Positions 339 through 17,614 of a stretch of DNA of 20,000 nucleotides are shown here, piece by piece (position 1 is the first letter of the stretch; each line of letters opens with the position of its first letter). The stretch lies in the IMG/VR virus record IMGVR_UViG_3300020050_010858, one strand, 5' to 3'. A program made the translations under genes and the position numbers. The notes below the pieces were generated by a model. The model saw nothing but the letters and a program-made list of their open reading frames with translations. It searched no databases and had not been told where the DNA came from. The stretch is from an uncultured virus (IMG/VR IMGVR_UViG_3300020050_010858) (taxonomy: Duplodnaviria > Heunggongvirae > Uroviricota > Caudoviricetes).

Positions 339-342
339 TTCA

Positions 343-816: not shown

Positions 817-827
817 GGGTCTAAGCC

Positions 828-1298
828 ATGCGTCGCAAATCCAAATTATCAGGCAAGCTCAGGAAGTCCTCAGGTTGGGACAGGCATAGCGAACAGCGAA
901 AGGCGGTGCGCTGCCTCTGCATTCGGAAATATTGCCGACGAACACCCAGGCGAAACCGGCGGGTTTGCGACACTTGCGACTCGCGAGAGAAGTTTGCGAA
1001 GCACCCAATCTTGCGACTTTTCCACAACCTAAAGACTCACGCAAAGATGCGAAAGAAGCCCTTCGCTCTGAAATACGAATGGTTCAAAAAGTGGGCGATC
1101 CGCTGCGGATACGATCGCCTACACGGCACGTCGGCAAGCTCCCTTACTGTAGATCGTCGCGACCACAAAAAAGGCTATGTCGTCGGAAATATCCGGCCTC
1201 TTTCTCATTCGGAAAACTCGCGCAAAGGATATTTCGAGCGCTTCGAGAAACCCTGGGAAGTCGCTTCCTCACCATCAGATTATCCACACCCATTCTAA
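828..1298 (+). CDS. HNH-like endonuclease
   Basis: LTVDRRDHKKGYVVGNIRPLSHSENSRKG resembles the DR.D..KGY..GN beta-beta-alpha-metal motif; Cys pairs near the N-terminus. Confidence 0.65.
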   Translation: MRRKSKLSGKLRKSSGWDRHSEQRKAVRCLCIRKYCRRTPRRNRRVCDTCDSREKFAKHPILRLFHNLKTHAKMRKKPFALKYEWFKKWAIRCGYDRLHGTSASSLTVDRRDHKKGYVVGNIRPLSHSENSRKGYFERFEKPWEVASSPSDYPHPF

Positions 1299-1302
1299 AC
1301 CT

Positions 1303-1515
1303 ATGTTCAAAATCACTATCACGGAAATCCCTAGTCCAATCGCCCCTCGTCCAATCGCCCCTCGTCAGCTCGAAATCGGAGAGGTTGCCGAATTGCCACT
1401 AATTCAGCCGGTCGAGCGGTATTCGCAAACCGTCGATGCAATCAACCTTCCCGCTGTCATGGCGGCCGTAAATCGGCAGCCGAGGCGGAAGCGCTCTCCA
1501 AATATAAAAGCATGA
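1303..1515 (+). CDS. hypothetical protein (70 aa)
   Basis: ATG at 1303, just after the stop at 1298; stop overlaps the next ATG (ATGA). Confidence 0.6.
   Translation: MFKITITEIPSPIAPRPIAPRQLEIGEVAELPLIQPVERYSQTVDAINLPAVMAAVNRQPRRKRSPNIKA
1334..1366. repeat. 15-bp tandem duplication (GTCCAATCGCCCCTC x2), in frame
   Basis: Exact copies at 1334-1348 and 1349-1363; encodes PIAPR twice. Confidence 0.9.
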
Positions 1516-1685
1516 AATACGAGGACATGAGCCCGCCTGAAACATTCGTCTTTTTCAGAGAAGGATTCTTTTATCCCGTGGAAATTCCTGTCGAATCCAT
1601 CGCCGATAACGCCGCTCTGAATCCCGGAACGCTGCGGGTTGAAGATTTGTGCGGTCGTGTCATGTGGTCACATGCGCAGGTCTAG
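1512..1685 (+). CDS. hypothetical protein (57 aa, not in the ORF track): MKYEDMSPPETFVFFREGFFYPVEIP...NPGTLRVEDLCGRVMWSHAQV
   Basis: Translated by hand; ATGA overlap with the upstream gene; fills the 1515-1672 gap. Confidence 0.6.
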   Translation: MKYEDMSPPETFVFFREGFFYPVEIPVESIADNAALNPGTLRVEDLCGRVMWSHAQV

Positions 1686-1878
1686 GACAGTAGGGCGACC
1701 GGAACTAATCGATGAGCTCCATTTTCTCTACGGATCAACAAGCGCAAACGACCTGATGAATATTCTAACCGACCTCGCCCAAATATCCGATTTAGCCGTC
1801 GATCTATCCGACGTGCCGGATTCGGATTTGATGCGGGCTAGAAATCGCGCGCTTAACTCTGAAAGGAAGGCGGCATGA
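1672..1878 (+). CDS. hypothetical protein (68 aa)
   Basis: In-frame ATG at 1672; stop overlaps the next ATG. Confidence 0.55.
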   Translation: MRRSRTVGRPELIDELHFLYGSTSANDLMNILTDLAQISDLAVDLSDVPDSDLMRARNRALNSERKAA

Positions 1879-2204
1879 AAGTTTATGCAAAAAATCAACC
1901 TTCACCTGTGGCTTCCGCTCTACCGTACACCCAGCCTCAACGAATACAGAGTCGGACACTTCCGCCGCCGTATGAAGCTGAAAGAGGAGGCGAGGTGCGC
2001 ATTGACGTCGTCATTACTCGACGCTCTTGCCGACTACTCGACGACGACAATCTGTACGGAGGAGCGAAGCCGCTTATTGATAGCCTGCGCGAGCTTGGCC
2101 TCATCCCGGACGACGACACGAAAACGATCAAGCTTGAATGCCGGCAGGTCCGGGTCTCGAGTCGTGCACAAGAAGGTGTTGAGCTTGAAATAAAGCATCC
2201 ATAG
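1875..2204 (+). CDS. RusA-like Holliday junction resolvase, catalytic half
   Basis: VVITRRSCRLLDDDNLYGGAKPLIDSLRELGLIPDD matches D-x-D-N...K...D.L...G.I.DD; GGAAGG RBS-like sequence upstream. Confidence 0.7.
   Translation: MKVYAKNQPSPVASALPYTQPQRIQSRTLPPPYEAERGGEVRIDVVITRRSCRLLDDDNLYGGAKPLIDSLRELGLIPDDDTKTIKLECRQVRVSSRAQEGVELEIKHP
1885..2193 (+). CDS. overlapping ORF carrying the RusA-like N-terminal motif
   Basis: LWLPLYRTPSLNEYRVGHFRRRMKLK resembles the RusA L.LP..PS.N...H..R N-terminus; different frame from 1875..2204. Confidence 0.5.
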   Translation: MQKINLHLWLPLYRTPSLNEYRVGHFRRRMKLKEEARCALTSSLLDALADYSTTTICTEERSRLLIACASLASSRTTTRKRSSLNAGRSGSRVVHKKVLSLK

Positions 2205-2206
2205 TA

Positions 2207-3130
2207 ATGGCCTCACTGCCCTATATGCAGTTTTTCCCCTCCGATTGGATGGCAGATTGCCAAGTTCTGTCGTTGGCTGCGCGCGGGGCATGGCAGACGA
2301 TTATTTGTAAGGCATGGCACCCTTCCACAAGGGGTGTAATCACCATGAAATTACCGGCTATAGCCAGGCTATTAGGGGCTACCGTGGAAGAGGCGGAAAA
2401 AGCAATATGTGAGATTTCAGAAACGCAGATCGGCGACGTCAAAAACAACGAAGACGGAACGATTACCATCATTTGTCGCCGTGCAAAACGCGACTGGGAG
2501 AGTGCCGAAACTCGTCATTCTTCTCTGTCGGAGGCCGGATCTAAGGGCGCGGCAAAACGTTGGAAAAAGCCCGATAGCCAGGCCAATAGCCACCCCATCG
2601 AAAGGCCAATGGCAATCCAGAAGCTAGAAGCTAGAAGCCATATTATACCCCCAACCCCCAAAGCGAAGACGCCGAAACCCGATCGAATCCCAACCACTGA
2701 GTCAGCCAAGCGAATCGCTTCGCTCTTCGCGCGCCGTCTGACGACGGCTTGGAGCGAGAAAGAGGTCAAGGCTTTCAAGTCTCTCGGAGATGTGGTTCCA
2801 GACGACCTGGCTGCAATTGAACGCTACTATGCCGTAGAGCGCGCCAAGGGACCTGACGCCGGCCGACATCGGAGGGACCTACTAACGTTTCTGAATAACT
2901 TTCCTGGCGAAGTTGATAGGGCGAGAGCAAAACAGCCGCGCCCATGCACAGGAGCCACCTCGACGCTCGAGCTTGTTCGCCAGCGCGCCCTGGTCTTCGG
3001 GCTTGTAGCCTTCCGCGAGTGGATGCGGATTGAGTACGGCGACAGAGCTGAAGGCGAGGACGATCTACACACTGTCACTCGCGAAGGACTGATCGTCGAT
3101 TTTCTACGTTCAAAAGGAGCATTAGCATGA
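2207..3130 (+). CDS. phage replication initiator (YdaU/DUF1376-like N-terminus)
   Basis: LPYMQFFPSDWMAD...LSLAARGAW..II.KAW N-terminus; GSKGAAKRW motif; low-complexity linker with short repeats. Confidence 0.75.
   Translation: MASLPYMQFFPSDWMADCQVLSLAARGAWQTIICKAWHPSTRGVITMKLPAIARLLGATVEEAEKAICEISETQIGDVKNNEDGTITIICRRAKRDWESAETRHSSLSEAGSKGAAKRWKKPDSQANSHPIERPMAIQKLEARSHIIPPTPKAKTPKPDRIPTTESAKRIASLFARRLTTAWSEKEVKAFKSLGDVVPDDLAAIERYYAVERAKGPDAGRHRRDLLTFLNNFPGEVDRARAKQPRPCTGATSTLELVRQRALVFGLVAFREWMRIEYGDRAEGEDDLHTVTREGLIVDFLRSKGALA
2571..2640. repeat. short imperfect repeats in the initiator linker (candidate origin iterons)
   Basis: ATAGCCA x2, AGGCCAAT x2, then AGAAGCT-AGAAGCT-AGAAGCC at 2619-2639. 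Confidence 0.4.
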
Positions 3131-3155
3131 ACCCATCCGACCCTATTACAATTAT

Positions 3156-3671
3156 ATGAAAGCTCATCAAAGCAGTACTGGAAAAAACGACGAGTGGTTA
3201 ACGCCGCGATGGATATTGGAACCGCTTGGTGCGTTCGATCTCGATCCTGCCTCACCCGTGAGGCGGCCATGGCCTACCGCTCGCCATCACATGACCGTTG
3301 AGGATGATGGTCTGGCTAGCAAGTGGTTTGGTCGCGTATGGCTAAATCCTCCGTTCAACCGCTATCAACGGCCTAAGTGGATGCAGGCAATGGCGGGGCA
3401 TGGTAATGGGATCATGCTGATTCCTGCTGCCACAGAGACCGCGGCCTTTACGAAATGGGTCTGGAAAGAAGCGAATGCAGTTTGCTTTGTGGCAACCCGG
3501 CCACACTTTCACTTAGTCACCGGCGAGCGAGCAAAGGCCAACTGCGGCTGCTCAATCGCGCTAGCGGCCTATGGCGAGGACAACGCACGAATCTTAGAGC
3601 GTAGCAGGCTCGGAGCCACACTCCGCCTGCGCGCCCACCACCCAACCCATCAACCGAGTGAGCGAAAATGA
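3156..3671 (+). CDS. phage DNA N6-adenine methyltransferase (small Dam-like family)
   Basis: DEWLTP, FDLDPAS, DDGL..KW.GRVWLNPPF motifs. Confidence 0.85.
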   Translation: MKAHQSSTGKNDEWLTPRWILEPLGAFDLDPASPVRRPWPTARHHMTVEDDGLASKWFGRVWLNPPFNRYQRPKWMQAMAGHGNGIMLIPAATETAAFTKWVWKEANAVCFVATRPHFHLVTGERAKANCGCSIALAAYGEDNARILERSRLGATLRLRAHHPTHQPSERK

Positions 3672-3684
3672 GTGATGCGCAAAC

Positions 3685-3945
3685 TTGTGTTTGTCGAAAC
3701 GAGACACGCTCTGGACGCTCGCCGTGTGCGCGTTCGCTGGATGGTGGGTGTGGTGGGTGCCGCTGGCACTCTTCGCAACGCACTTCGCGCAGGATCGAAC
3801 GAACATCATCATGTGGTGGATGAAGCTGCCGTGGAAGGATCAAACCGCCTTTACAACTGGACCTTGCTCGCCGTGGTCGATCATCGTGGTCGATAACGTC
3901 TGGCACATCGTGACCCTCTACGTGGTGGCGTATGTATTGGTCTAA
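3685..3945 (+). pseudogene. 5'-truncated membrane protein, DUF3307-like C-terminal half
   Basis: THFAQDR and VDNVWH motifs in hydrophobic helices; in-frame TGA at 3673 and no good start; stop TAA lies in the first attC-like core. Confidence 0.5.
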
Positions 3946-4069
3946 CGCAGAGGTCAGGAATCCTCACCCAGAAAAACCATGAATATGAATAAAGCAATCA
4001 AAACAAAATCGGCCTCATCGAAGCCCCAAGTCGCGGCGGGTGGGGATTCCCTGGACCGCCTTGTTCGCC
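3940..4069 (-). repeat. attC-like site 1 (130 bp)
   Basis: + strand: GTCTAAC GCAGA GGTCAGGAATCCTCACCC ... GGGTGGGGATTC[C]CTG[G]ACC GCCTT GTTCGCC. Confidence 0.85.
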
Positions 4070-4386
4070 TGCGTTTGGCGATGTGGGCGGAGGGGTGGAC
4101 ATCCGAGGATCAACTCACGACAAACGGATGGGGAAGCGGACTTGGATACTCTATCTGGTTCAACCGATGGGACTGGCACGGCAAAAGGCTGACGGCCTTC
4201 CGCGCAACCTACCACGCGCACGGGCTGGCCAGGGATGGAATCCTGAGCGTCGCAGAAAAAGCGGCGGCACTGGCGCGGGAGGCGTGGGAGAGGTTCCCAG
4301 ACGAACCACCAAATCAGATGGCTCATTACGTGCTGCAATCGCCGGGGGATTATGTCTTGGCGAACGATCAGTTATGCCAGCCATGA
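3979..4386 (+). CDS. hypothetical cassette protein (135 aa)
   Basis: Start in the loop of site 1; stop in site 2, overlapping the next ATG. Confidence 0.65.
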   Translation: MNMNKAIKTKSASSKPQVAAGGDSLDRLVRLRLAMWAEGWTSEDQLTTNGWGSGLGYSIWFNRWDWHGKRLTAFRATYHAHGLARDGILSVAEKAAALAREAWERFPDEPPNQMAHYVLQSPGDYVLANDQLCQP

Positions 4387-4453
4387 GCGCCAACGACGAT
4401 CTTTTCACGCTAGAGCCAGCCGCGAAGGGCTTGGCATCAGCGTCTTGTTCAGC
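4359..4453 (-). repeat. attC-like site 2 (95 bp)
   Basis: GGCGAAC GATCA GTTATGCCAGCC ... GGCT[T]GGCAT[C]AGC GTCTT GTTCAGC. Confidence 0.85.
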
Positions 4454-4952
4454 GGTTCTTTCGAGCTGCGGACAGTATCGCTACGAGCTTTGGAGGCGAT
4501 GGGCAGAGGGGCCGCATGTGCTCTTCATAATGCTCAATCCATCGACCGCCGACGCCACGAATGACGACGCCACAATCCGCAAGTGCGTGGCTTACGCGAA
4601 GCGGTGGGGTTTCGGGGCGCTGTGCGTTGGGAACCTCTTCGCCTTCCGTGCGACTGACCCGAAGGACATGAAAGCCGCTGCCGATCCAATTGGGCCGGAG
4701 AACAACGCCACACTCGCAAGGCTGGCAAGCGAGGCAGGTGTGATCGTGGCTGCTTGGGGAGCGCATGGCACGCACATGAGCCGCGACAAGTCAGTGATGA
4801 AGATGCTGCCGACAATCAACGCCCTGCACGTCACGAAAGACGGCTCGCCGGGGCATCCGCTCTACCTCAAAGGTGACGCCACGCCCTTTCCGCTGAACGC
4901 AGAGTTAACGCGCGGCGTAGCCGTCGCGTTGAACGCCGGGTTAGAGCCATGA
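4383..4952 (+). CDS. DUF1643 family protein (189 aa)
   Basis: YRYELWRRW, FIMLNPSTAD..DD.TIRKC, NLFAFRATDP, AAWG, GHPLY motifs; ATG 4383 preferred over the track start at 4083. Confidence 0.9.
   Translation: MSANDDLFTLEPAAKGLASASCSAVLSSCGQYRYELWRRWAEGPHVLFIMLNPSTADATNDDATIRKCVAYAKRWGFGALCVGNLFAFRATDPKDMKAAADPIGPENNATLARLASEAGVIVAAWGAHGTHMSRDKSVMKMLPTINALHVTKDGSPGHPLYLKGDATPFPLNAELTRGVAVALNAGLEP
4892..4946 (-). repeat. attC-like site 3 (55 bp, minimal)
   Basis: GCTGAAC GCAGA GTTAACGCGCGGC GTA GCCG[T]CGCGTT[G]AAC GCCGG GTTAGAG; G and T extrahelical bases. Confidence 0.9.
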
Positions 4953-5362
4953 CGCACCACCGCGTGACGCCGATGGGCCAGGCGATGGGGAAGAGCGCCG
5001 CGCGACTGGCGCAGCTTGGCCGCCTACGGCTCGAAGCCGCTGGGCTGACGAACCTGAAGCTGCCCGCGATGCGCGACGAGATGTGCAAAACCTGCGCTGG
5101 TCGAGAGGGAACCGTGCCGAACGGCTGCCTGCAAACGCAGCTCGATTTTCTGAAAGCGGTGGTTGATGGTCAGAGATTTTTATGTCATTCGCCAAAAGAT
5201 GGCCGGATGTGCGCTGGTTGGGTGGCCGCACGCGCTGAGCATGTGGCAAACCCGCTGCCGAGCGAGGCTCAGGAGTTTTTAGCGCGCTGGGAATATTCAC
5301 CGCCCGATGCCGATGGCTCTAACACCACGATGAGCTGCACAGCCCCGAAGGAGGACGCATGA
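4949..5362 (+). CDS. hypothetical Cys/His-rich cassette protein (137 aa)
   Basis: CKTCA, FLCH and MCAGW motifs suggest Zn binding; ATGA overlaps at both ends. Confidence 0.7.
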   Translation: MTHHRVTPMGQAMGKSAARLAQLGRLRLEAAGLTNLKLPAMRDEMCKTCAGREGTVPNGCLQTQLDFLKAVVDGQRFLCHSPKDGRMCAGWVAARAEHVANPLPSEAQEFLARWEYSPPDADGSNTTMSCTAPKEDA

Positions 5363-5413
5363 ATCCAGAGCAAAGCGTGGACGGGGCTGTGTTAGCTCCA
5401 TCGACTGTTCGGC
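5317..5413 (-). repeat. attC-like site 4 (97 bp)
   Basis: CTCTAAC ACCAC GATGAGCTGCACAGCCCCG ... CGGGGCTGTGT[T]AGCT[C]CATC GACT GTTCGGC; loop holds AAGGAGG and an ATG. Confidence 0.85.
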
Positions 5414-5607
5414 CTATGCCGATAGAAATGAGGCGATGGCTGAAATATCAACTCGAAAAAGCAAGGCAGCCGATTCCGGAATCTGATCGCAAATATCCAC
5501 TCAGGGTCATGCTGTATGAGTCCAATCGTGAAATGATGGAGGAGTGGGATAAATGGATCGAATCGCTGCCCTCTTTTGATCAGCCGAACGATAAAATCCT
5601 GCCATGA
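5359..5607 (+). CDS. hypothetical cassette protein (82 aa)
   Basis: AAGGAGG RBS before ATG 5359; ATGA overlaps at both ends. Confidence 0.7.
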   Translation: MNPEQSVDGAVLAPSTVRPMPIEMRRWLKYQLEKARQPIPESDRKYPLRVMLYESNREMMEEWDKWIESLPSFDQPNDKILP

Positions 5608-5680
5608 CTCCCGCGCCCTTCCAGCTCGATTCTGAACCGACTCCCTCGCGGGAGTCATTGGCAGCGATGCCTTGTTGTGG
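5583..5680 (-). repeat. attC-like site 5 (98 bp)
   Basis: GCCGAAC GATAA AATCCTGCCATGACTCCCGCG ... CGCGGGAGTCAT[T]GGCAG[C]GAT GCCTT GTTGTGG. Confidence 0.9.
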
Positions 5681-6377
5681 ATCTTTGGATCTGCGCTTGG
5701 CTGACTGCATGGAGGTGATGAAAACCTTCCCGGATGGCCACTTCGACCTTGCGATAGTCGACCCGCCTTACGGACTCGGTGACGCTCTGGTCGCTGGTGG
5801 AACATGGTCGGTTAAGTATCAAGCCAAGGGGGCGAAATGGGACGTGAAGCCGGAGGCTGAATACTTCGAAGAACTCCAGCGCGTGGCGAAAAACTGGATC
5901 ATATGGGGCGCGAACTACTACTCGCAACACCTCCCGCCAACGCGGGGCTTCGTCGTCTGGCACAAGCCGAACATGGAAGGAATGCACACGATGGCGAACT
6001 GTGAGCTGGCATGGACGAGCTTCGACCGGAATGCCAAGACGGTATCAATCACGCGGCCAAACGAAGACAGAATCCACGTCTGCCAGAAGCCGGTGAAGCT
6101 CTATGACTGGCTCCTGGCAAACTTCTCGAAACCGGGCGAGCGGGTGCTGGATACGCACATGGGAAGCGGAAGCATCGCCATTGCGGCTCACTACGCCGGG
6201 GTGCATCTGACGGCCTGCGAGATCGACCCGGAATACTTCCACGCGGCCAAGGCGCGAATCGAAAAGGAGACGCGCCAAATGGACTTCTTCAATCTCCACA
6301 ACGACGGAACTCAGCGACCCGGCTCACCGGACGGGTCGCTTGCAACTGAAACGCGAAAGCCGGGTTCGCTGAAGTGA
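5604..6377 (+). CDS. N6-adenine/N4-cytosine DNA methyltransferase (beta-type motif order)
   Basis: DLAIVDPPYG catalytic motif, IIWGANYY, H..QKPVKLY, VLDTHMGSGS SAM-binding motif, EIDPEYF. Confidence 0.92.
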   Translation: MTPAPFQLDSEPTPSRESLAAMPCCGSLDLRLADCMEVMKTFPDGHFDLAIVDPPYGLGDALVAGGTWSVKYQAKGAKWDVKPEAEYFEELQRVAKNWIIWGANYYSQHLPPTRGFVVWHKPNMEGMHTMANCELAWTSFDRNAKTVSITRPNEDRIHVCQKPVKLYDWLLANFSKPGERVLDTHMGSGSIAIAAHYAGVHLTACEIDPEYFHAAKARIEKETRQMDFFNLHNDGTQRPGSPDGSLATETRKPGSLK

Positions 6378-6387
6378 CTGGTTAGAC
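6296..6387 (-). repeat. attC-like site 6 (92 bp)
   Basis: CCACAAC GACGG AACTCAGCGACCCGGCT ... AGCCGGGT[T]CGCTG[A]AGT GACTG GTTAGAC. Confidence 0.85.
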
Positions 6388-6408
6388 CACGGCAACAACA
6401 CCAAAAAT

Positions 6409-6729
6409 ATGACAAACCAAAGACTAAGAAACCTGACTACTGGCCGACTCCACACGGAAATGGGCCACATCTACGAAGACCTCGGAATCATCACCGGCGA
6501 GGAAGGGCTGATGACTCACATGCTACCGAGAGCAATGCGCGCCTGTGAACCGTGGCTGCGCGAGCACGTCACCGACCCGCGCTTCTGGGATGGCGAATAC
6601 GATACAACGCACACCGGAGAAACCGAACTCCCGACGCCAAGCGAGGCCGACCGCAAGGCGATGTTCGAGCGATACGCGGAACAACCGAATCCACTCGCTG
6701 GCAAAGAGGTCATAGGCGTAGTGGTCTAA
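6409..6729 (+). CDS. hypothetical cassette protein (106 aa)
   Basis: ATG after an A-rich leader; stop TAA lies in the GTCTAAC core at 6724-6730. Confidence 0.75.
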   Translation: MTNQRLRNLTTGRLHTEMGHIYEDLGIITGEEGLMTHMLPRAMRACEPWLREHVTDPRFWDGEYDTTHTGETELPTPSEADRKAMFERYAEQPNPLAGKEVIGVVV

Positions 6730-6786
6730 CAGGTAGAAAACCAAAGAAACTTCGTATAAACGAAAAATCACTCTGTTAAATAACCA

Positions 6787-6814
6787 TAGACATACGCGCA
6801 TGTCGTGATAGATT
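6787..6814 (+). promoter_or_regulatory. candidate sigma70-type promoter with an overlapping palindromic operator
   Basis: TAGACA (6787-6792), 16-nt spacer, TAGATT (6809-6814) preceded by TG; near-palindrome GACATACGCGCATGTC at 6789-6804; ATG at 6822. Confidence 0.4.
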
Positions 6815-6821
6815 GAATGAA

Positions 6822-7076
6822 ATGAAAGTAACAATTTGGAAAAATTTTGGAAAACGGAAAGGGCTATCTATCTCAAAAGATTGCTCGCCGATTGGACTTG
6901 TTGAAATTTGGAACAGTATTTCCAATATGGGAAATCTCAAATCTGATGCCGTATCAGATCTAATGTTCATGCGAGCCAGTAGGATGCTTCGTCTATCTAT
7001 CGAGGCTGGGGCAACTCCATTCAATCTTACTGAAAGAAAAGGATACCAAATCATCCAGGCGGAGGTTGAGTTATGA
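6822..7076 (+). CDS. hypothetical protein in AT-rich segment
   Basis: In-frame ATG at 6822 (track start is TTG 6813); ATGA overlap with the next gene. Confidence 0.6.
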   Translation: MKVTIWKNFGKRKGLSISKDCSPIGLVEIWNSISNMGNLKSDAVSDLMFMRASRMLRLSIEAGATPFNLTERKGYQIIQAEVEL

Positions 7077-7459
7077 GTGTTTATCCTGACTGTCCTCACG
7101 GGGAAGAGCAGCTTGAATCTGGTGTTCTTAACGACCCTACTCCCAAATCTATCGAGTGGGGCGATCTCGCGGATTTCGACGAAATGTTCAAGCATATTTG
7201 CGAACACTCTGACGGATTTACATATGCTCAAATGGAAACAGTTCGAGCGTGGATGCATGCGGGGATTTCGTGGAAACAAATGCAACATGTTAACGAAATT
7301 CATGATTTCAAATCCATCTTGTTAAGATGTTACAATAACGGAATTGATTCTGTAAATTTCGATGGTCGTCTTGCTTCTGAAAATAAACTAGCGACCGAAG
7401 AAATTCTGAAATTCCCAATATCCGATTGTTCGTTAAATAATAACGAGGCCTACAGATGA
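7073..7459 (+). CDS. hypothetical acidic protein (128 aa)
   Basis: GGAGG RBS upstream; ATGA overlaps at both ends. Confidence 0.65.
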   Translation: MSVYPDCPHGEEQLESGVLNDPTPKSIEWGDLADFDEMFKHICEHSDGFTYAQMETVRAWMHAGISWKQMQHVNEIHDFKSILLRCYNNGIDSVNFDGRLASENKLATEEILKFPISDCSLNNNEAYR

Positions 7460-7698
7460 AATGCCCTCAATGCGGCTACGAAATCGAGTCCCAGCAAAGG
7501 CGAGCTGCAAATTCTCGCTGGTCAAAAATGACCCCCGAACAGAAATCCGCCCAAATGTCCAAAATCCGCAAAAAGGGGATTAAGAAAAAGAAGAAACCCC
7601 TTAGCAAGAATGGATACGACAACACAGACCCCTTCCGTTGCCACCAGTGCCTTGTTAGGATGCCCGTTCTGCGGTGGCGAAGCGAGCGCAACCGGTGA
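7456..7698 (+). CDS. small basic protein with N-terminal CPQC, possibly DNA-binding
   Basis: MKCPQCG...SRWSKMTPEQKSAQMSKIRKK; the C-terminus runs into the next cassette. Confidence 0.55.
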   Translation: MKCPQCGYEIESQQRRAANSRWSKMTPEQKSAQMSKIRKKGIKKKKKPLSKNGYDNTDPFRCHQCLVRMPVLRWRSERNR

Positions 7699-7921
7699 AG
7701 TGAAATACTCCGAAACCCATGAAGCGTGGTGGAAGGATGGAACACGCATCCGTAAATCCTACTTCTGCAACTGCATGAAGTGCGGAGTAACCAACAAGGG
7801 TCTGTGCGGACATCAGACGCCTGCGCTGGCTGTCAGACATTGGAACACCCGCAGTCAGGCTAACGCAATAGGTGAGGCACGGGCGGACACCGACACCTCG
7901 CCGCAAGATCAAACTCTCTAG
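7610..7921 (+). CDS. Lar-like (restriction alleviation) Zn-ribbon protein
   Basis: LLGCPFCGGEA ... CMKCG ... AVRHWNTR pattern. Confidence 0.75.
   Translation: MDTTTQTPSVATSALLGCPFCGGEASATGEVKYSETHEAWWKDGTRIRKSYFCNCMKCGVTNKGLCGHQTPALAVRHWNTRSQANAIGEARADTDTSPQDQTL
7635..7660 (-). repeat. attC-like half-site (right arm only)
   Basis: CCGTTGCCACCAGT GCCTT GTTAGGA resembles the right arms of sites 1, 5 and 7; no complementary left arm upstream. Confidence 0.55.
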
Positions 7922-7981
7922 CCACCATGCCACTCCGAAACAACACCGCCCCGCCCGTTGCTCTCGACCGACTTGTTCGGG
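7858..7981 (-). repeat. attC-like site 7 (124 bp)
   Basis: GGCTAAC GCAAT AGGTGAGGCACGGGCGG ... CCGCCCG[T]TGC[T]CTC[G]ACC GACTT GTTCGGG; three extra bases (T,T,G). Confidence 0.85.
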
Positions 7982-8238
7982 ATCTCATTTCGCGGGCGAG
8001 AGATCAGAAACGCCGCACCCGCCAACGACTGCGTGACATGGAGGGAGATTTCATCGCGGAGCCGACTCGCGGCCCCATCCAACGCAATGGCAGGCGGTGC
8101 ATCCGCTGGCACTTCTGGCAGGCATCCCGCGCCAAACATCAGGCCATCACCGACCAAATCACGGCGGTCAAATCATGTATCCCGAACACCGTAACGGTGT
8201 GGGACACGAAGGCGGACAAAGAAGTCTATCGCGCATGA
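7927..8238 (+). CDS. hypothetical Arg-rich cassette protein (103 aa)
   Basis: Start in the loop of site 7; stop overlaps the HTH gene ATG. Confidence 0.6.
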   Translation: MPLRNNTAPPVALDRLVRDLISRARDQKRRTRQRLRDMEGDFIAEPTRGPIQRNGRRCIRWHFWQASRAKHQAITDQITAVKSCIPNTVTVWDTKADKEVYRA

Positions 8239-8450
8239 ACTGGGCTGCACAATTCGTCGAAGCACGCGGCAGCCTCACTCAAGCGGAGGCTGCCGCTTCC
8301 ATTTCCGCGCTCCTCTCTGTGCGCACCGTTGAAGATTGGGAACTCGGTCGCAGGCAACCTCCAGCTTGGGTGCAAGCTCTCGTGCTCGCTGTTCTTCGGC
8401 GGGCGGCGGGGAGGAAAACCGCTCGCGCGAAAACCGGAGCAAGGAAATGA
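8235..8450 (+). CDS. XRE/Cro-like helix-turn-helix protein (71 aa)
   Basis: LTQAEAAASI...SVRTVEDWELGRRQPP; ATG 8235 preferred over the track start at 8097. Confidence 0.85.
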   Translation: MNWAAQFVEARGSLTQAEAAASISALLSVRTVEDWELGRRQPPAWVQALVLAVLRRAAGRKTARAKTGARK

Positions 8451-8559
8451 ACGACGACATGAGCCACTGCGAAGCCAGCCCCGCCGCAAAATGACCGCCC
8501 AAGCCACATCCCGGCCCGAGTCCAACCGCGTAGCGGTTGGCTCGATGGGCTTGTTGGGC
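8446..8559 (-). repeat. attC-like site 8 (114 bp)
   Basis: AATGAAC GACGA CATGAGCCACTGC ... GCGGT[T]GGCTC[G]ATG GGCTT GTTGGGC. Confidence 0.8.
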
Positions 8560-8829
8560 GATGTCCTCCCTGGTCAAAAATTCCGCTTCCCTCACAGGAA
8601 AGAAGGCGCGCCGGTCTATGAAATGCTATCGCGCGGAAGCTGGAAGGCTGGAATGCAGGTCCGCAGAACGTGGCCGGATGGATGCTCTGACGAGGTGACG
8701 CTCTCAAAGAAATACCTGCGCGAGGAAGTTATATTTATTCAGCCCAACGATAAGGTCAGCGACGGCGGGCCGCTGACTCCCGAATCCAAACAAGACGCGA
8801 ACCCGCCGTTCGCTGCACCGCTTGGTTAG
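8491..8829 (+). CDS. hypothetical cassette protein (112 aa)
   Basis: ATG 8491 in the loop of site 8; reads through site 9. Confidence 0.6.
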   Translation: MTAQATSRPESNRVAVGSMGLLGDVLPGQKFRFPHRKEGAPVYEMLSRGSWKAGMQVRRTWPDGCSDEVTLSKKYLREEVIFIQPNDKVSDGGPLTPESKQDANPPFAAPLG

Positions 8830-8831
8830 CC
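8742..8831 (-). repeat. attC-like site 9 (90 bp)
   Basis: GCCCAAC GATAA GGTCAGCGACGGCGGG ... CCCGCCGT[T]CGCTG[C]ACC GCTTG GTTAGCC. Confidence 0.9.
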
Positions 8832-8834
8832 CTT

Positions 8835-9080
8835 ATGACACTACAACGCAAACTCACTCAATGGACGGAATGTGTGCCGGAAGAAATGGCGAAGATGTCG
8901 CCAGCGGCAATCCAATACGCACTGGCCGACGCCAAGGCGGACATAATCACAATGGCGAAACTCCTGTGCGAAGCCGGATACCCGCGCCGTGGAACGCCGG
9001 AAGAATCCCAAACCATCTATGACTACGCCGAGAAGGTGCAAACGCTCATCCCGCACGCCGATGCCGTCGAGTTGGGCTAA
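8835..9080 (+). CDS. hypothetical cassette protein (81 aa)
   Basis: ATG just after site 9; stop TAA lies in the GGCTAAC core. Confidence 0.7.
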   Translation: MTLQRKLTQWTECVPEEMAKMSPAAIQYALADAKADIITMAKLLCEAGYPRRGTPEESQTIYDYAEKVQTLIPHADAVELG

Positions 9081-9106
9081 CGCAATAGGTGAGGCGCACG
9101 GGCGGA
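9075..9106 (-). repeat. attC-like half-site (left arm only), near-copy of 7858-7887
   Basis: GGCTAACGCAATAGGTGAGGC[GC]ACGGGCGGA; no right arm downstream. Confidence 0.75.
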
Positions 9107-9139
9107 AAGCGCCACGTCGCCACGCCAGAAAGGAATGAA

Positions 9140-9370
9140 ATGACTCCTGAACATCTGACGCGATTGCAGTTCCAGTTCGCGTCGATAAAATCATGGATAG
9201 AAATAAAGCCAAAAGAAGCTCAAGCAGCGCTACTAGCATTAATTCCTAAGCGCAACGATTATCGAATTTGGGCCATACTTGAAATGGTCTGTTTATATGA
9301 CTCAGAAGATAGCGCCGAGAAGAAAAATATTGAGCGCACAATTTTGGAGATTTTAAGAAATAAATTATGA
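9140..9370 (+). CDS. hypothetical protein
   Basis: AAAGGA RBS before ATG 9140; ATGA overlap downstream. Confidence 0.55.
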   Translation: MTPEHLTRLQFQFASIKSWIEIKPKEAQAALLALIPKRNDYRIWAILEMVCLYDSEDSAEKKNIERTILEILRNKL

Positions 9371-9606
9371 GTGAAGAATCGAAATGCGAATCTATGTGCG
9401 AGGGGAGATATACAGCCACTGGGCATTGCTTGTGTCACGCCACACATAGCGAAGATGTAGTGCCTAGAGAGCTTGCCATAAGGCTCGAAAAAGAAGTCCA
9501 CATTCTAGAGGCGGCATTAAAGGCGACTAAAGGTAAACGCATGGGGCATGTTGAGGATATTGTAAAAAAGGCCCTCCGTGAAGTAGAGAGGATGAGGAAA
9601 TTATGA
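9367..9606 (+). CDS. hypothetical protein (79 aa)
   Basis: ATGA overlaps at both ends; C-terminal coiled-coil character. Confidence 0.55.
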   Translation: MSEESKCESMCEGRYTATGHCLCHATHSEDVVPRELAIRLEKEVHILEAALKATKGKRMGHVEDIVKKALREVERMRKL

Positions 9607-10043
9607 GTGTTTGCAGAAATCACAATCCCTACGACAGATGGACGTATGACCACCAATGCCCTGTTTGTTTATCAAAGACCATTGACGAGAAAGACGCGAC
9701 CATCGCCGAGCTGAATGCGCGGGTTAAGGAGCTGGAGGAGAATGTGCGGGAATCTCAAAAACAAGACCAGAGCACTCTCTCCGAGTCTAACGAGCGGCTG
9801 AGAGAACATATAACCTCCCTAAATTGTGGTGGCCGCGATGGAATTGATGTTTGCACGGAAGATAGTGCATGTTTTGTCCACTCAGCACTCTCCGACACGC
9901 CATCCGGCCAGCGGTTTGTTAAGAGGGAGGTTTTGGAGGGCGTTATGGCAGTTGCCAGATTTGGAAGTATGGAGCAGTCGCCACCCGGATTTTCGGACGA
10001 TCAAATTGATGCAGCCCAGGCCGAGCTGGATAGGACGAGGTGA
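9603..10043 (+). CDS. hypothetical coiled-coil protein with Cys pairs (146 aa)
   Basis: CPVC; heptads KDATIAELNARVKELEE. Confidence 0.6.
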   Translation: MSVCRNHNPYDRWTYDHQCPVCLSKTIDEKDATIAELNARVKELEENVRESQKQDQSTLSESNERLREHITSLNCGGRDGIDVCTEDSACFVHSALSDTPSGQRFVKREVLEGVMAVARFGSMEQSPPGFSDDQIDAAQAELDRTR

Positions 10044-10131
10044 GTTAAACCCGAATCCTTAATTGGTAATACAGGGGATTGATAAGGGGTTCTTGACGAA
10101 GTATGTCAAGCCTGAAATGCTATCTACACTT

Positions 10132-10542
10132 ATGGGCCGCCCTTCAAAATATACTCAATCTCTTGCTGATGAGATTTGCGAGCGACTTTCTAAATGTGAG
10201 CCCCTGGCTGGGATATGCAGGGGGGAAGGGAAGCCAACAACTCAAACAGTCAATGCTTGGGTTCGTGATAATGAATCTTTCGCCATCGCATACGCGCGCG
10301 CGAGAGAGGAAGGGTTTGACGAAATAGCAATGGATTGTCTACATATCGCTGACGAGACAGGGCAGGATACTAAATACACTGACTCAGGCGAACAGGCAGA
10401 TAGCGAATGGATCACTCGCAGCCGACTACGTGTTGAGACGCGCCTGAAACTTTTGGCTAAATGGTCTCCCAAGAAATACGGTGACAAAATTGAGCACGAT
10501 CACCAAGGCGGCATCAAGGTTGAGGTGCTTAAAAATTGGTGA
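10132..10542 (+). CDS. terS: terminase small subunit
   Basis: GRPSKYT..LADEICERL, YARARE, RLRVETRLKLLAKWSPKKYGDK; directly upstream of terL. Confidence 0.88.
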   Translation: MGRPSKYTQSLADEICERLSKCEPLAGICRGEGKPTTQTVNAWVRDNESFAIAYARAREEGFDEIAMDCLHIADETGQDTKYTDSGEQADSEWITRSRLRVETRLKLLAKWSPKKYGDKIEHDHQGGIKVEVLKNW

Positions 10543-11861
10543 CTGTTCATCTCCCGTACAAGTTTACGCCTCGCGACTACCAGAAGCCGCTTTTCAAGGC
10601 TATCGTTGAGGACGGGGTTAAGAGAGCCGCTTGTGTTTGGCATCGACGAGCAGGAAAGGACAAAACCTTTCTGAATATCCTTGCGATCATGGGCATGTTG
10701 ACCAAGGCGAACTACGCCTATTATTTTCCAACTGCTGTTCTTGGCCGGAAAGCTCTTTGGGATAATATTGATGCTCGCACAGGAATGAAGGTTATTGACC
10801 ATCTCCCTTCCGATATCGTCGAAAAAAAGAATGAGCAGCAAATGAAGATCACGCTTGTGAATGGCTCGATTATCCAGGTGCTTGGAACCGACTCTTTAGA
10901 CGTGGTTGGAGGAAATTATTATGGCGTTATCTTTTCGGAAGCAGCACAGCAAAACCCGTTAGCTTGGGATTACACACGGCCAATTTTGAGAGAGAACGGC
11001 GGTTGGGCGCTTTTAAATGGCACTCCGAGAGGAAAGAATTGGTGGTACAAGCTTTTCACCAAGAATATCACAAACCCCGCATGGTTTTGTCAGTATCTCA
11101 CCATCGACGATACGAAGGCGTTAACCGAGGTTGATATTAACGAAGAGCGCAAGGCAGGAATGAGTGAGGATCTTATAAAGCAGGAATATTATTGCGACTG
11201 GACCATTGGAATGCCTGGCGCCATTTATGCACAACAGATCGAAAGAGCGCGTTTGGAAAAACGAATTTGCGACAACGTAATGTGGTTTAAGGAGTTGCCT
11301 GTTTACACTGTTTTTGACGTGGGAGCACCACTGAATCAAAAGTGTTGGGTATTTCAAATGGTGGGAGATCGTATTAATTATCTTGAATTCCTATCTGGGG
11401 ACAACGATTGCAAAACGCCTGCTGATTGGTCCGGAAGGCTGCGACTAAGGCCCTATAGCTACGGCTCGCATTTCATCCCGCACGACGCCTGTACTGAGAA
11501 CGGTGGATTGTGGCAGGGCGGATTTGAAACAGCGGGACTATCTCATGTTGTGGGAGTCCCTCGTCAAGTATCTGTATGGGATGGGATCAATCTTGCGCAA
11601 GACGCGTTCCCCCGAATATTTATGAACGCCAGTGGATGCGAAAAGGGAATCGAGGGACTAGCGGCCTACCACTCCAAAGAAGAAAAAGACGGGGCAACTA
11701 TCAGTAATGTGCCGGTCCATGATTGGGCGAGTCATGCCGCTGATCCTTTCAGTCTTTCTCATCAAGCCATTCACAAAGGACTTGTTCTGGATCGCACATC
11801 AGTAGCCCGCAAGCCTCGCAATCGTATGGCCGGAAAAGTCCTCTCAGGATATCGCGGATAA
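10536..11861 (+). CDS. terL: terminase large subunit
   Basis: PRDYQ, Walker A HRRAGKD, Walker B-like VIFSEAA, GTPRG, nuclease VFDVG and HDWASHAAD. Confidence 0.95.
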   Translation: MVTVHLPYKFTPRDYQKPLFKAIVEDGVKRAACVWHRRAGKDKTFLNILAIMGMLTKANYAYYFPTAVLGRKALWDNIDARTGMKVIDHLPSDIVEKKNEQQMKITLVNGSIIQVLGTDSLDVVGGNYYGVIFSEAAQQNPLAWDYTRPILRENGGWALLNGTPRGKNWWYKLFTKNITNPAWFCQYLTIDDTKALTEVDINEERKAGMSEDLIKQEYYCDWTIGMPGAIYAQQIERARLEKRICDNVMWFKELPVYTVFDVGAPLNQKCWVFQMVGDRINYLEFLSGDNDCKTPADWSGRLRLRPYSYGSHFIPHDACTENGGLWQGGFETAGLSHVVGVPRQVSVWDGINLAQDAFPRIFMNASGCEKGIEGLAAYHSKEEKDGATISNVPVHDWASHAADPFSLSHQAIHKGLVLDRTSVARKPRNRMAGKVLSGYRG

Positions 11862-11878
11862 TTTTTTTGCCCTATATG

Positions 11879-11892
11879 TCAGATTCACTTGC
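11879..11892 (+). promoter_or_regulatory. 14-bp motif TCAGATTCACTTGC, copy 1
   Basis: Intergenic; identical copy at 15739-15752. Confidence 0.55.
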
Positions 11893-11922
11893 AAAAGTAA
11901 TTCACTCTCGTTTATCGTTTCA

Positions 11923-14724: not shown

Positions 14725-14757
14725 ATCAACAATCAAATAGCCCGAAAGGACACCTAT

Positions 14758-15654: not shown

Positions 15655-15681
15655 AAATTTCGGCAGTCTTCGACGCCGATC

Positions 15682-15730
15682 GCGCCCTCTCAGGTTTTGC
15701 TTTTTTTCCCTGAGAGGGCGCTCTTTTTCT
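15682..15730 (+). terminator. intrinsic terminator after the scaffold gene
   Basis: 13-bp perfect stem GCGCCCTCTCAGG / CCTGAGAGGGCGC followed by TCTTTTTCT. Confidence 0.7.
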
Positions 15731-15738
15731 CTTAAAAA

Positions 15739-16835: not shown

Positions 16836-16844
16836 AATCATCCG

Positions 16845-17602: not shown

Positions 17603-17614
17603 CCATATACGAAC

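What the first reader, a model, noticed from the sequence alone, without database searches (positions are those of the whole stretch)
4063..9081. Each cassette's two ends are complementary to each other, not to the partner core of the same hairpin
Seen: the GTT core entering each ORF body is the reverse complement of the AAC core leaving it. Pairs: 4063 GTTCGCC/4359 GGCGAAC (7 bp); 4447 GTTCAGCGG/4890 CCGCTGAAC (9); 4940 GTTAGAGCCAT/5313 ATGGCTCTAAC (11); 5407 GTTCGGC/5583 GCCGAAC (7); 5674 GTTGTGGA/6295 TCCACAAC (8); 6381 GTTAGACCAC/6721 GTGGTCTAAC (10); 7975 GTTCGGGAT/8179 ATCCCGAAC (9); 8553 GTTGGGC/8742 GCCCAAC (7); 8825 GTTAGCCC/9074 GGGCTAAC (8). Within any one integrated hairpin the two cores pair contiguously over only 3-4 bp. 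Established: integrated cassettes look like this because crossover at G|TT splits the R' box, which is restored on circularisation. Inference: the mobile units are 3946-4364, 4365-4897, 4898-5322, 5323-5588, 5589-6301, 6302-6729, 7864-8186, 8452-8747 and 8748-9080. Terminators or REP elements would not produce this pattern.
Basis: partly seen in the sequence, partly recalled or inferred. Interest (0 to 1): 0.86.

Follow-up and report, generated by a model that had tools for sequence, protein, structure and literature searches.

The report
Integron-type gene cassettes inside a phage
A stretch of a bacteriophage genome is built from about ten swappable one-gene modules of the kind bacteria keep in integrons, but each gene faces the opposite way to the textbook layout, which suggests that some phages run their own version of this gene-shuffling system.

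Summary
All 9 core pairs are exact. Cognate cores pair over 7-11 nt, against 3-4 nt within one hairpin. No shuffle out of 200,000 reached the observed total.

The hairpins are structurally canonical integron attC sites: a 5-6 nt unpaired spacer, then 3 bp, an extrahelical base, 6 bp and an extrahelical T. They lie in the accessory region of a podovirus-like phage.

New points:
- The extrahelical bases sit opposite the AAC triplet on the + strand. The coding strand is therefore the attC bottom strand, each cassette is a left hairpin plus an ORF, and the crossover is AA|C on + (G|TT on -).
- Three metagenome contigs carry the DUF1643 unit at 91-94% identity, spanning 4370-4898 exactly, next to different neighbours.
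- The window has no integrase. Related phage contigs carry an integron integrase directly right of such arrays.
- 44 IMG/VR contigs encode TIGR02249-type integrases. Their arrays lie upstream, and where the ORF strand could be called it was the same reversed one.
- Two canonical controls gave the opposite ORF strand.

Verdict: genuine integron cassettes, in a new phage-borne variant with reversed ORFs.

The parts
3946..4364 (+). Cassette C0. Contains attC S0 (AAC 3944 to GTT 4065, 122 nt) and an ORF from 3979 (alternative ATG 4081) to 4386, of unknown function.
   Evidence: The hairpin has 17 bp and 2 bulges on the 3' arm. The flanking cores GTTCGCC/GGCGAAC match over 7 nt. No Pfam or PHROG family was found.
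4365..4897 (+). Cassette C1. Contains attC S1 (4363-4449) and a DUF1643 ORF at 4383-4952.
   Evidence: PF07799 scores E 9e-45. There is no in-frame ATG/GTG/TTG between the GTT core at 4447 and the start of the domain (sequence). The ATG at 4383 is invariant in 3 of 3 copies, and there are two compensatory stem changes. The homologous unit spans 4370-4898 in L016, L021 and L027. The cores match over 9 nt.
4898..5322 (+). Cassette C2. Contains attC S2 (4896-4942, 47 nt) and an ORF at 4949-5362.
   Evidence: The helix reads 3 bp-[G]-6 bp-[T]-4 bp with a 5/5 nt spacer. A hairpin identical at 48 of 50 positions occurs in L017 between different bodies. The cores match over 11 nt.
5323..5588 (+). Cassette C3. 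Contains attC S3 (5321-5409) and an ORF from 5359 (alternative ATG 5416) to 5607.
   Evidence: The fold is -21.3 kcal/mol, with bulges on the 3' arm. The cores match over 7 nt.
5589..6301 (+). Cassette C4. Contains attC S4 (5587-5676) and an N6/N4 DNA methyltransferase ORF from 5604 (alternative TTG 5685) to 6377.
   Evidence: The helix reads 3-[C]-6-[T]-11 with score 16. PF01555 scores 1.5e-14 and phrog_67 scores 3.5e-44. Homologues at 54-55% identity lie just upstream of intI in L040 and L042. The cores match over 8 nt.
6302..6729 (+). Cassette C5. Contains attC S5 (6300-6383) and a DUF7736 ORF at 6409-6729, whose TAA stop lies in the AAC core.
   Evidence: The helix reads 3-[A]-6-[T]-7. PF24875 scores 2.6e-17. 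The S5 hairpin recurs with 1 difference at the end of a 32-kb contig in run X4. The cores match over 10 nt.
6730..7863 (+). Atypical block. Low-GC DNA (35-48% GC) with ORFs 6813-7076, 7073-7459 and 7456-7698, plus a Lar-like restriction-alleviation gene at 7610-7921. It ends in an AAC core.
   Evidence: The candidate hairpins S6 (6728-6777, -3.1 kcal/mol) and S7 (0.1 kcal/mol) are unconvincing. The Lar assignment rests on PF14354 and phrog_599. Related phage contigs give no depth over 6671-7337 in runs X1, X2 and X4.
7864..8186 (+). Cassette C8. Contains attC S8 (7862-7977, 116 nt) and an ORF at 7927-8238.
   Evidence: The helix reads 3-[G]-3-[T]-3-[T]-7, which gives three extrahelical bases. 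The cores match over 9 nt.
8187..8451 (+). Atypical unit. A 7-bp mini-palindrome lies right after the AAC core (about 8186-8200), followed by a small ORF at 8235-8450. The unit ends in an AAC core.
   Evidence: The fold is shown (S9) and the sequence. There is no GTT core and no end complementarity, so this is not a standard cassette.
8452..8747 (+). Cassette C10. Contains attC S10 (8450-8555) and an ORF at 8491-8829.
   Evidence: The helix reads 3-[G]-6 with a 5/5 nt spacer. The cores match over 7 nt. In-silico circularisation did not favour the cognate end here: it ranked 7 of 9.
8748..9080 (+). Cassette C11. Contains attC S11 (8746-8827) and an ORF at 8835-9080, whose TAA stop lies in the AAC core.
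   Evidence: The helix reads 3-[C]-6-[T]-7. The cores match over 8 nt.
9081..9128 (+). Right end of the array. This is the 5' half of an S8-type attC, followed by unrelated low-GC DNA. There is no integrase.
   Evidence: The alignment of the S8 and S12 regions is near-identical for about 47 nt from the AAC core, after which similarity is lost. tblastn with a phage IntI against the window gave nothing below E 1.5.

Best explanation
Window 3946-9081 is an array of integron-type gene cassettes in the accessory region of a podovirus-like phage, between the replication module and the terminase genes. No integrase is visible in the window, so as far as it shows the array is a CALIN (a cluster of attC sites lacking an integrase).

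Each cassette is an attC hairpin followed by one ORF. The + strand, which is the coding strand, is the attC bottom strand, the one that integron integrases fold and cut.

The crossover lies between the second A and the C of each + strand AAC core (G|TT on the - strand). In a free circular cassette, the ...RYYYAA end meets C-spacer-hairpin-GTTRRRY, and the two boxes pair over 7-11 bp. Integration cuts at AA|C and carries the RYYYAA half to the far end of the cassette. That is why the GTT core after a hairpin matches the AAC core at the end of the same body and not its hairpin partner.

Unlike textbook cassettes, the ORFs are read from the bottom strand. The attC therefore lies 5' of the gene, and for DUF1643 it contains the start codon. 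Phage read-through transcription runs towards the place where attI and intI sit in related phages.

Shown here: the complementarity, the attC anatomy, the strand asymmetry, the boundaries of one unit in other contigs, and integron integrases next to such arrays in relatives.

Inferred: that an IntI, supplied by a co-infecting relative or by the host, moved these cassettes; that this phage lost its own intI; and that the cargo (two DNA methyltransferase types, a Lar-like protein, DUF1643, DUF7736) serves counter-defence.
For: (1) Complementarity. All 9 of 9 pairs are exact. Cognate pairs span 7-11 nt, against a mean of 3.6 nt for 123 non-cognate pairs, and 0 of 200,000 permutations reached the observed sum.

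(2) Anatomy. My hairpin detector found 10 asymmetric AAC...GTT hairpins with score >=7, all with the + strand as the bulged-3'-arm strand, and 9 of them lie in the array. Six score >=9, and 5 of those show 3 bp-EHB-6 bp-T. Thirty dinucleotide shuffles gave a mean of 0.03 hits >=9 and none with the canonical pattern. S2 carries G and T, and S8 carries G, T, T spaced 3+3.

This matches the passages read in Nivina 2016 (PMC5027507). They describe G16 and T23/24 on the bottom strand, a 6-bp stem between the first and last EHB, a 5-6 nt UCS, and EHBs opposite the AAC triplet on the bottom strand.

(3) Which hairpin goes with which body. L016, L021 and L027 share 4370-4898, 4370-4616 and 4774-4899 at 91-94% identity. 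Upstream cores differ in 3 of 3 copies and downstream hairpins differ in 3 of 3. The S1 stem shows two compensatory changes.

(4) Integrase geometry. L027 carries the DUF1643 cassette, then two more cassettes (end matches of 8 and 8 nt), then an IntI-like gene whose ATG lies 31 nt after the last AAC core, on the same strand.

G001 is a phage contig whose primosomal protein is 49% identical to the window's. It has an IntI-like gene (TIGR02249 249.9 bits; best PDB hit VchIntIA 2a3v, E 2e-45) right of an array.

L013 has intI about 4 kb upstream of TerL and a portal 48% identical to the window's.

(5) Controls for my strand calls. In a bacterial integron (L029) the bottom strand is the intI sense strand, and 3 of 3 bodies have the longer open frame on the other strand. 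In the published phage CALIN of TJE1, the bottom strand is opposite to the annotated ORFs.

(6) ORF strand in the window. DUF1643, the N6_N4 methyltransferase, DUF7736 and the Lar-like gene all match families on the + strand.
Against: No integrase lies in the 20-kb window, and the rest of the genome is not held. Present-day mobility in this phage is therefore not shown.

No circular junction or precise excision was seen. The four runs laid were assembled contigs, and their three joints (4449>6150, 5773>6148, 6229>6300) are not cassette excisions.

Homology of the DUF1643 unit begins at 4370, not 4365. The three central spacer bases after AAC-G differ in all three copies (ATC/TCT/CAG) although the rest is 91-94% identical. 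An exact AA|C crossover does not predict this.

In L017 an S2-type hairpin (48 of 50 identical) again follows a DUF1643 gene that is only 70% identical, with a different body to its right. By itself, that would fit the opposite linkage.

Only 1 of 9 units could be tested against close homologues. Three junctions (6730, 8187, 9081) lack a proper attC. C10 does not gain from cognate circularisation.

The attC calls rest on my own detector, not on IntegronFinder or HattCI.
Confidence: 0.85

Rival explanations
1. These are cassettes in the textbook orientation. Each unit would be an ORF followed by its own attC on the right, with the + strand as top strand and the crossover at the + strand G|TT. 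The units would then be 4064-4447, 4448-4940, and so on.
For: End complementarity and the in-silico junction stems are identical under this model. Many ORFs have a possible start 9-18 nt after a GTT core, as textbook cassettes do (sequence; L017 and L018). In L017 the S2-type hairpin again follows a DUF1643 gene.
Against: The extrahelical bases lie opposite the AAC triplet on the + strand, and the inner one is T. This is the bottom-strand signature. The DUF1643 homology includes the left hairpin and stops at the AAC core before the right hairpin in 3 of 3 contigs. DUF1643 would have no start codon inside its own unit. In L027 and G001 the integrase would sit at the far end of the array instead of beside attI. 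Two canonical controls gave the opposite strand call with the same detector.
Confidence: 0.04
2. The array is a fossil. A piece of an integron array was captured once by illegitimate or homologous recombination and is now fixed phage DNA that no longer recombines. The end complementarity would be an inherited footprint.
For: There is no intI in the window. The right end is half of an attC joined to unrelated low-GC DNA. Two internal junctions are degenerate. No excision joints were seen.
Against: Nine sites keep full attC anatomy, including spacer and EHB spacing, and stems are kept through compensatory change. The same DUF1643 cassette sits beside different neighbours in 3 other contigs, one of them next to an IntI gene. 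Related phages carry intI at the corresponding place. This rival concerns present activity only. It accepts the same origin as the best explanation.
Confidence: 0.08
3. The hairpins are not integrase sites. They would be transcription terminators, REP-like elements, or phage intergenic stem-loops that promote gene shuffling by homologous recombination or template switching. This would resemble the promoter-stem-loops I recall from T4-like phages.
For: The hairpins lie at gene boundaries in a hyperplastic phage region, and hairpin types (S1 3' arm, S2, S5) recur next to unrelated bodies in other metagenomes.
Against: None of the terminator-like + strand sites coincides with S0-S11, and the hairpins lack T tails. 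Rfam gives no family there. Terminators or REPs do not explain the AAC/GTT triplets, the 5-6 nt unpaired spacer, the fixed 3 bp-EHB-6 bp-T pattern, the cassette-specific end complementarity, or the TIGR02249 integrases next to such arrays.
Confidence: 0.03

Closest known systems
Bacterial integron cassette arrays and attC sites (class 1 attC such as attCaadA7; Vibrio VCR)
   Same: They share RYYYAAC/GTTRRRY cores and L-box stems. They share a 5-6 nt unpaired central spacer. They share extrahelical bases at 3 bp, and 6 bp further in, with the inner one a T. Site lengths are 47-122 nt. The array is co-oriented, and the R box is split between the two ends of an integrated cassette (passages of PMC5027507 read). 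The bacterial control L029 shows the same attC-to-intI geometry.
   Different: Here the ORFs lie on the bottom strand. The attC is therefore 5' of the gene, and transcription runs towards the attI side. The host is a phage, and no intI lies in the window. In L029, 3 of 3 bodies are on the opposite strand.
Integrons and CALINs reported in phage genomes (Qi et al. 2023, PMC9892861; abstract, section 3.4 and found passages read)
   Same: These are clusters of attC sites without an integrase in virulent phages, and they carry DNA methyltransferases as cargo. Their attC sites were recombined by IntI1 in assays.
   Different: That survey of 10,705 NCBI phage genomes found 17 CALINs, each with at least 2 attC sites, and 3 complete integrons. 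The complete ones were described as pieces of host integrons or class 1 mosaics. In TJE1 (3 sites) my detector puts the bottom strand opposite to the ORFs, which is the textbook orientation. The window has 9 good sites with reversed ORFs, and its relatives have their own IntI.
Treponema-type 'atypical' integrons (PMC3607928, passages read)
   Same: intI and the cassette genes are transcribed in the same direction.
   Different: In Treponema, intI is transcribed towards attI and the cassettes follow it. In the phage contigs L027 and G001 the cassettes come first, are transcribed towards attI, and intI follows and is transcribed away from attI. The attC-attI-intI geometry is the typical one, and only the ORF strand is flipped.

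Membership tests
Integron attC recombination site | Inverted R cores: RYYYAAC at one end and GTTRRRY at the other | tested here: met
   All 9 good sites start with an AAC core and end with a GTT core. Examples are GTCTAAC..GTTCGCC and GCTGAAC..GTTAGAG.
Integron attC recombination site | L-box stem separated from the R boxes by an unpaired central spacer of about 5-6 nt per arm | tested here: met
   The spacer is 5-6/5 nt in S0, S2, S4, S5, S8, S10 and S11. S1 fits 5/5 if one G-T pair is allowed, as in L016. S3 is irregular at 4/3.
Integron attC recombination site | Extrahelical bases on one arm, with a 6-bp stem between the first and last, and the last a conserved T on the bottom strand | tested here: met
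   The pattern 3-[N]-6-[T] occurs in S2, S4, S5 and S11, and also in L016's S1. S8 reads 3-[G]-3-[T]-3-[T]. No shuffle out of 30 gave this pattern. The rule itself comes from PMC5027507.
Integron attC recombination site | Recombined by an integron integrase at AA|C of the bottom strand | not testable with these tools
   The evidence is indirect only. Homologous unit boundaries fall at AAC cores, and the R box is split.
Complete integron (intI + attI + array) | An integron integrase gene next to the array | tested here: not met
   tblastn of a phage IntI against the window gave nothing better than E 1.5. The feature is met in relatives L027 and G001.
CALIN (cluster of attC sites lacking an integrase) | Two or more co-oriented attC sites with no intI nearby | tested here: met
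   There are 9 sites on one strand within 3944-8827, and no intI in 1-20000. The rest of the genome was not seen.
Textbook cassette organisation | ORF on the top strand with the attC at its 3' end | tested here: not met
   Four family-supported ORFs lie on the + strand, and the + strand is the bottom strand. The controls L029 and TJE1 behave as textbook.
Integron integrase (for the relatives' proteins) | Best family is TIGR02249, and alignment to VchIntIA runs through the IntI-specific extra segment | tested here: met
   G001 scores 249.9 bits and L027 240.3 bits, both just under the 265 cut-off. 44 of 44 further viral proteins have TIGR02249 as best family, 40 of 44 above the cut-off. The 2a3v alignment is continuous over query residues 25-315.
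Intrinsic terminator / REP element | GC-rich stem followed by a T run on the transcribed strand, or a repeated palindromic unit | tested here: not met
   No + strand terminator-like site coincides with S0-S11, and there is no Rfam family there.

The most novel reading that the evidence does not exclude
Phages have integrons of their own, as a distinct and widespread class. An IntI gene sits at the downstream end of an array whose cassettes carry the attC 5' of the gene, on the coding strand. The whole array and intI are therefore read in one direction by phage transcription, and the cassette pool (methyltransferases, Lar-like, DUF1643 and many unknowns) is a phage-specific, exchangeable counter-defence kit. 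The window would be a member of this class that has lost its integrase.

Support so far is a rough survey of IMG/VR contigs that encode an IntI:
- 44 of the 44 proteins I could submit have TIGR02249 as best family.
- Hairpin calls upstream of intI are 68 with the bottom strand on the intI strand, against 1 on the other strand.
- Of the bodies between consecutive sites, 17 have the longer open frame on that same strand, 0 on the other, and 17 are undecided.
Probability: 0.55. Interest if true: 0.85.

Novelty: new variant of a known kind. Interest (0 to 1): 0.72.

Why it matters
Integrons are the textbook bacterial device for capturing and reshuffling genes. In phages they have been reported only as rare captured fragments or as small attC clusters (PMC9892861).

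This window shows a long, well-formed cassette array inside a phage. Its genes are read from the strand that the integrase cuts. Relatives show the matching integrase at the end of such arrays.

If this holds, phages shuffle early accessory and anti-restriction genes with the same single-strand recombination chemistry as bacteria, but with an expression logic of their own: read-through towards attI instead of a promoter at attI. That would give a defined mechanism for part of the 'hyperplastic region' mosaicism of phage genomes. It would also provide a new cassette pool to mine for counter-defence genes, and natural examples of attC sites embedded at the 5' end of coding sequences.

Tried and rejected
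- **Whole genome.** None is held for this window, so an integrase elsewhere in this phage cannot be excluded.
- **Covariance model of the sites.** The MAFFT alignment A1 put S5's 5' arm out of register, and spacer lengths vary. I wrote a banded helix detector instead and did not build a model.
- **Close phage relatives.** There was no megablast match in 50,697 phage records. The best portal identity was 31%, to Pelagibacter podophages. The 98%-identical contig L001/L008 starts too far right to cover the array. A scan with the Dam protein found no relative.
- **Doubtful hairpins.** A hairpin left of the Lar-like gene (S7) folds at +0.1 kcal/mol and was rejected. S6 folds at -3.1 kcal/mol and is doubtful.
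- **Reads.** Only assembled contigs with small shares (0.06-0.13 of sampled words) were available. They gave no circular junctions or clean excisions. They do show a break right at 4899 (X3), breaks just after GTT cores at 4450 and 6391, and an S5 copy at the end of a 32-kb contig. Breaks at both kinds of core are expected if attC types are shared between unrelated bodies, so these data do not settle orientation.
- **ATGA overlaps.** Stop/start overlaps occur at 6 of about 10 junctions (read). I considered them a designed coupling signal, but with 1 in 3 expected by chance I make no claim.
- **Earlier notes.** A look-up of this scan's earlier notes returned nothing.
- **Literature.** Searches for phage-native integrons or reversed cassette ORFs found only PMC9892861 on the topic. 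Subscription journals are not in the library, and I did not open that paper's supplementary tables.

Full report
**1. The observation**

I compared every GTT core with every AAC core: 11 x 12, or 132 combinations.
- The nine pairs that flank a body average 8.4 nt.
- The eleven pairs within one hairpin are 3-4 nt.
- The 123 non-cognate combinations average 3.6 nt. Only two reach 7 or more, and both come from near-duplicate R boxes.
- No permutation out of 200,000 reached the observed total, and the observed pairing is the optimal assignment.

A 7-nt GTT/AAC match between arbitrary sites is common, with 37 in the window. The evidence therefore lies in the position of the pairs, not their length.

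Joining each unit's ends in silico made the cognate junction the most stable of nine possible partners for 7 of 9 units.

**2. What the hairpins are**

Folding and a purpose-written helix detector show long imperfect hairpins between each AAC and the next GTT. From the outside in they have:
- a 3-4 bp R stem;
- an unpaired spacer of 5-6 nt on each arm;
- 3 bp, a bulged base, 6 bp, a bulged T, then a further stem and a variable loop.

S2, S4, S5 and S11 have this form. S8 has three bulges, G, T, T, spaced 3 and 3.

Six asymmetric hits score 9 or more, and five of them have the canonical pattern. Thirty dinucleotide shuffles gave a mean of 0.03 such hits and none canonical.

This is the anatomy of integron attC sites as given in the passages of Nivina et al. 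2016 that I read (PMC5027507): RYYYAAC and GTTRRRY boxes, a 5-6 nt unpaired central spacer, and extrahelical bases G16 and T23/24 with a 6-bp stem between them.

The hairpins carry no T tails and match no + strand terminator-like site. They match no Rfam family.

**3. Which hairpin belongs to which body**

The complementarity cannot answer this. Cutting at the + strand G|TT or at the + strand AA|C predicts the same matches. Four independent lines point to AA|C.

(a) The bulges are on the arm opposite the AAC triplet on the + strand, and the inner one is T. One search gives this as the mark of the bottom strand, the one that is cut.

(b) A metagenome scan with the DUF1643 protein returned three contigs with 91-94% identical DNA. 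The shared stretches are window 4370-4898 (L016), 4370-4616 to a contig end (L021), and 4774-4899 from a contig end (L027).
- The left hairpin S1 travels with the gene.
- The AAC-core prefix to its left differs in all three copies.
- The hairpin to the right differs in all three.
- The S1 stem keeps pairing through two compensatory changes, and the ATG at 4383 is invariant.

(c) DUF1643 has no in-frame start codon between the GTT core and its conserved domain (sequence; domain limits). Its start must therefore lie in the hairpin to its left.

(d) In relatives the integrase sits where this orientation predicts (section 4).

The same detector called the textbook orientation in two controls:
- A bacterial integron, L029, has its attC bottom strand on the intI strand, and 3 of 3 bodies have the longer open frame on the other strand.
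- The published CALIN of phage TJE1 has its bottom strand opposite to the annotated genes.

They are structurally consistent for the rest.

**4. Context**

The window is a phage. Family hits are:
- SSB-like, endonuclease VII-like, RusA-like, primosomal and Dam genes on the left;
- small and large terminase, a T7-type portal (PF12236, E 5e-114), capsid and tail tubular genes on the right.

It has no close cultured relative.

The cassettes are GC-richer (about 55-68%) than the backbone. Two low-GC blocks interrupt or end the array.

There is no integrase in the window. Three relatives bear on this:
- G001 is a 40-kb viral contig whose primosomal protein is 49% identical to the window's. It encodes a 338-aa protein whose best family is the integron integrase TIGR02249 (249.9 bits, cut-off 265). 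Its best solved relative is VchIntIA (E 2e-45). attC-like sites and end-matched bodies lie to its left on the same strand.
- L027 holds the window's DUF1643 cassette at 93% identity, then two more cassettes, then an IntI-like gene. That gene starts 31 nt after the last AAC core.
- L013 has intI about 4 kb upstream of a terminase, and a portal 48% identical to the window's.

The right end of the window's array is half of an S8-type attC joined to unrelated DNA. This fits loss of the attI-intI end.

**5. A wider look (rough)**

An alignment of three phage IntIs found 52 IMG/VR loci. L034 repeats L013's contig and L033 is G001. Three partial matches (L082-L084) were set aside.

I submitted the 44 of 47 remaining proteins that had no stops in the matched stretch. 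All 44 have TIGR02249 as best family, and 40 are above the cut-off.

In 48 loci (those 47 plus L033), my detector found 68 asymmetric hairpins upstream of intI with the bottom strand on the intI strand, 1 with it on the other strand, and 7 downstream.

Of the bodies lying strictly between two consecutive sites, 17 have the clearly longer open frame on the intI strand, 0 on the other, and 17 are undecided.

Several of these contigs carry identical integrases, so they are not independent. The detector and the open-frame criterion are also crude. Still, the reversed layout is not peculiar to this window.

**6. Mechanism**

A free cassette is a circle in which ...RYYYAA meets C-spacer-L'-loop-L''-spacer-GTTRRRY. 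The two R boxes then pair over 7-11 bp.

An integron integrase binds the folded bottom strand and cuts between A and C. It joins the strand to attI or to another attC, and replication resolves the junction. This mechanism is described in the passages of PMC5027507 read.

In the array, the RYYYAA half therefore ends up at the far end of the body, next to the C and hairpin of the neighbouring cassette. Hence each hairpin's own boxes match over only 3-4 bp, while the two ends of a body match fully.

The chemistry is established for integrons, and the footprint is shown here. That an IntI acted on these particular sites is inferred.

Because the genes lie on the bottom strand, the phage's own transcription reads hairpin, gene, hairpin, gene towards attI. 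The start codon lies inside the hairpin (DUF1643), or a candidate start lies 9-28 nt behind it (several others).

**7. Comparison with what is known**

The sites pass every structural membership test for attC that I could run. The window fails the test for a complete integron but fits a CALIN. It fails the textbook cassette layout.

Phage CALINs and a few captured integrons are in print (PMC9892861; abstract, section 3.4 and passages read). The TJE1 example has the textbook orientation in my hands.

Treponema-type integrons also have intI and the cassettes co-directional, but with intI pointing at attI (PMC3607928). That is a different geometry.

My six searches found no description of phage-native integrons with reversed ORFs. 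The library lacks subscription journals.

**8. What remains unexplained**

- Homology of the DUF1643 unit starts 5 nt inside the predicted crossover. The three central spacer bases differ in all three copies.
- An S2-type hairpin follows a distant DUF1643 gene in L017 as well.
- attC types recur next to unrelated bodies, as in chromosomal integrons. The origin of such cassettes is unknown.
- Three junctions are degenerate.

**9. Verdict**

The finding is confirmed, and its interpretation is supported and sharpened. The phenomenon it rests on is textbook. The phage setting with reversed genes, and the integrase-bearing relatives, make it a new variant worth following up.

Noticed in passing
window 14525-14596 (+): A tRNA gene (Rfam RF00005, 48.4 bits) lies inside the head-gene region and overlaps the ORF 14332-14724. 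Its anticodon was not determined.
   Followed up: no
window 1320-1350: There is a 15-nt direct tandem repeat inside a small ORF. Contigs in 3 of the 4 runs laid lack one 15-nt copy at 1334 (table 4), so the copy number varies among relatives.
   Followed up: no
window 4366-4370, L016 84-88, L021 2799-2803: The three central bases of the 5' unpaired spacer of the S1 attC differ in all three copies of the DUF1643 cassette (ATC/TCT/CAG). Yet the 3' spacer and the rest are 91-94% identical. The spacer GCAGAG recurs in S0, S2 and L021's S1. This may hint that spacer bases are exchanged or are hypervariable during recombination.
   Followed up: partly
window 4383, 4949, 5359, 5604, 8235, 8447, 8491: ATGA start/stop overlaps couple consecutive ORFs even though the two ORFs belong to different cassettes. 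Several upstream ORFs run 19-76 nt into the next cassette's attC before stopping (read).
   Followed up: partly
L006 4167-4195, 4931-4960, 5204-5232 (= phage contig G001): Three consecutive cassettes share an 18-nt stretch directly after their GTT cores. It encodes a common N-terminal peptide (about AAVTGSA). Two cassettes also share a roughly 55-nt leader that includes the start codon. Function unknown.
   Followed up: no
L027 913-920 and L006 7500-7507: The same 8-mer, ending in the AAC core, lies 31 nt and 23 nt before the start codons of two IntI genes that are only 41% identical. It may be a conserved attI R box of this integrase group.
   Followed up: partly
window 3644-3678 and L015 4221-4255: A 35-nt stretch around the stop of the Dam gene and the start of the next ORF is 91% identical to the leader of a cassette in G001. 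Dam homologues lie just upstream of intI in L039 and L064. The array may once have extended further left than 3946.
   Followed up: partly
window 5337-6670: In the contig runs laid, depth over the methyltransferase cassette and the S5 hairpin is 25-52 in X1 and X2, against 1-6 over the phage backbone. Relatives of this cassette therefore sit in other, more abundant genomes in those samples.
   Followed up: no
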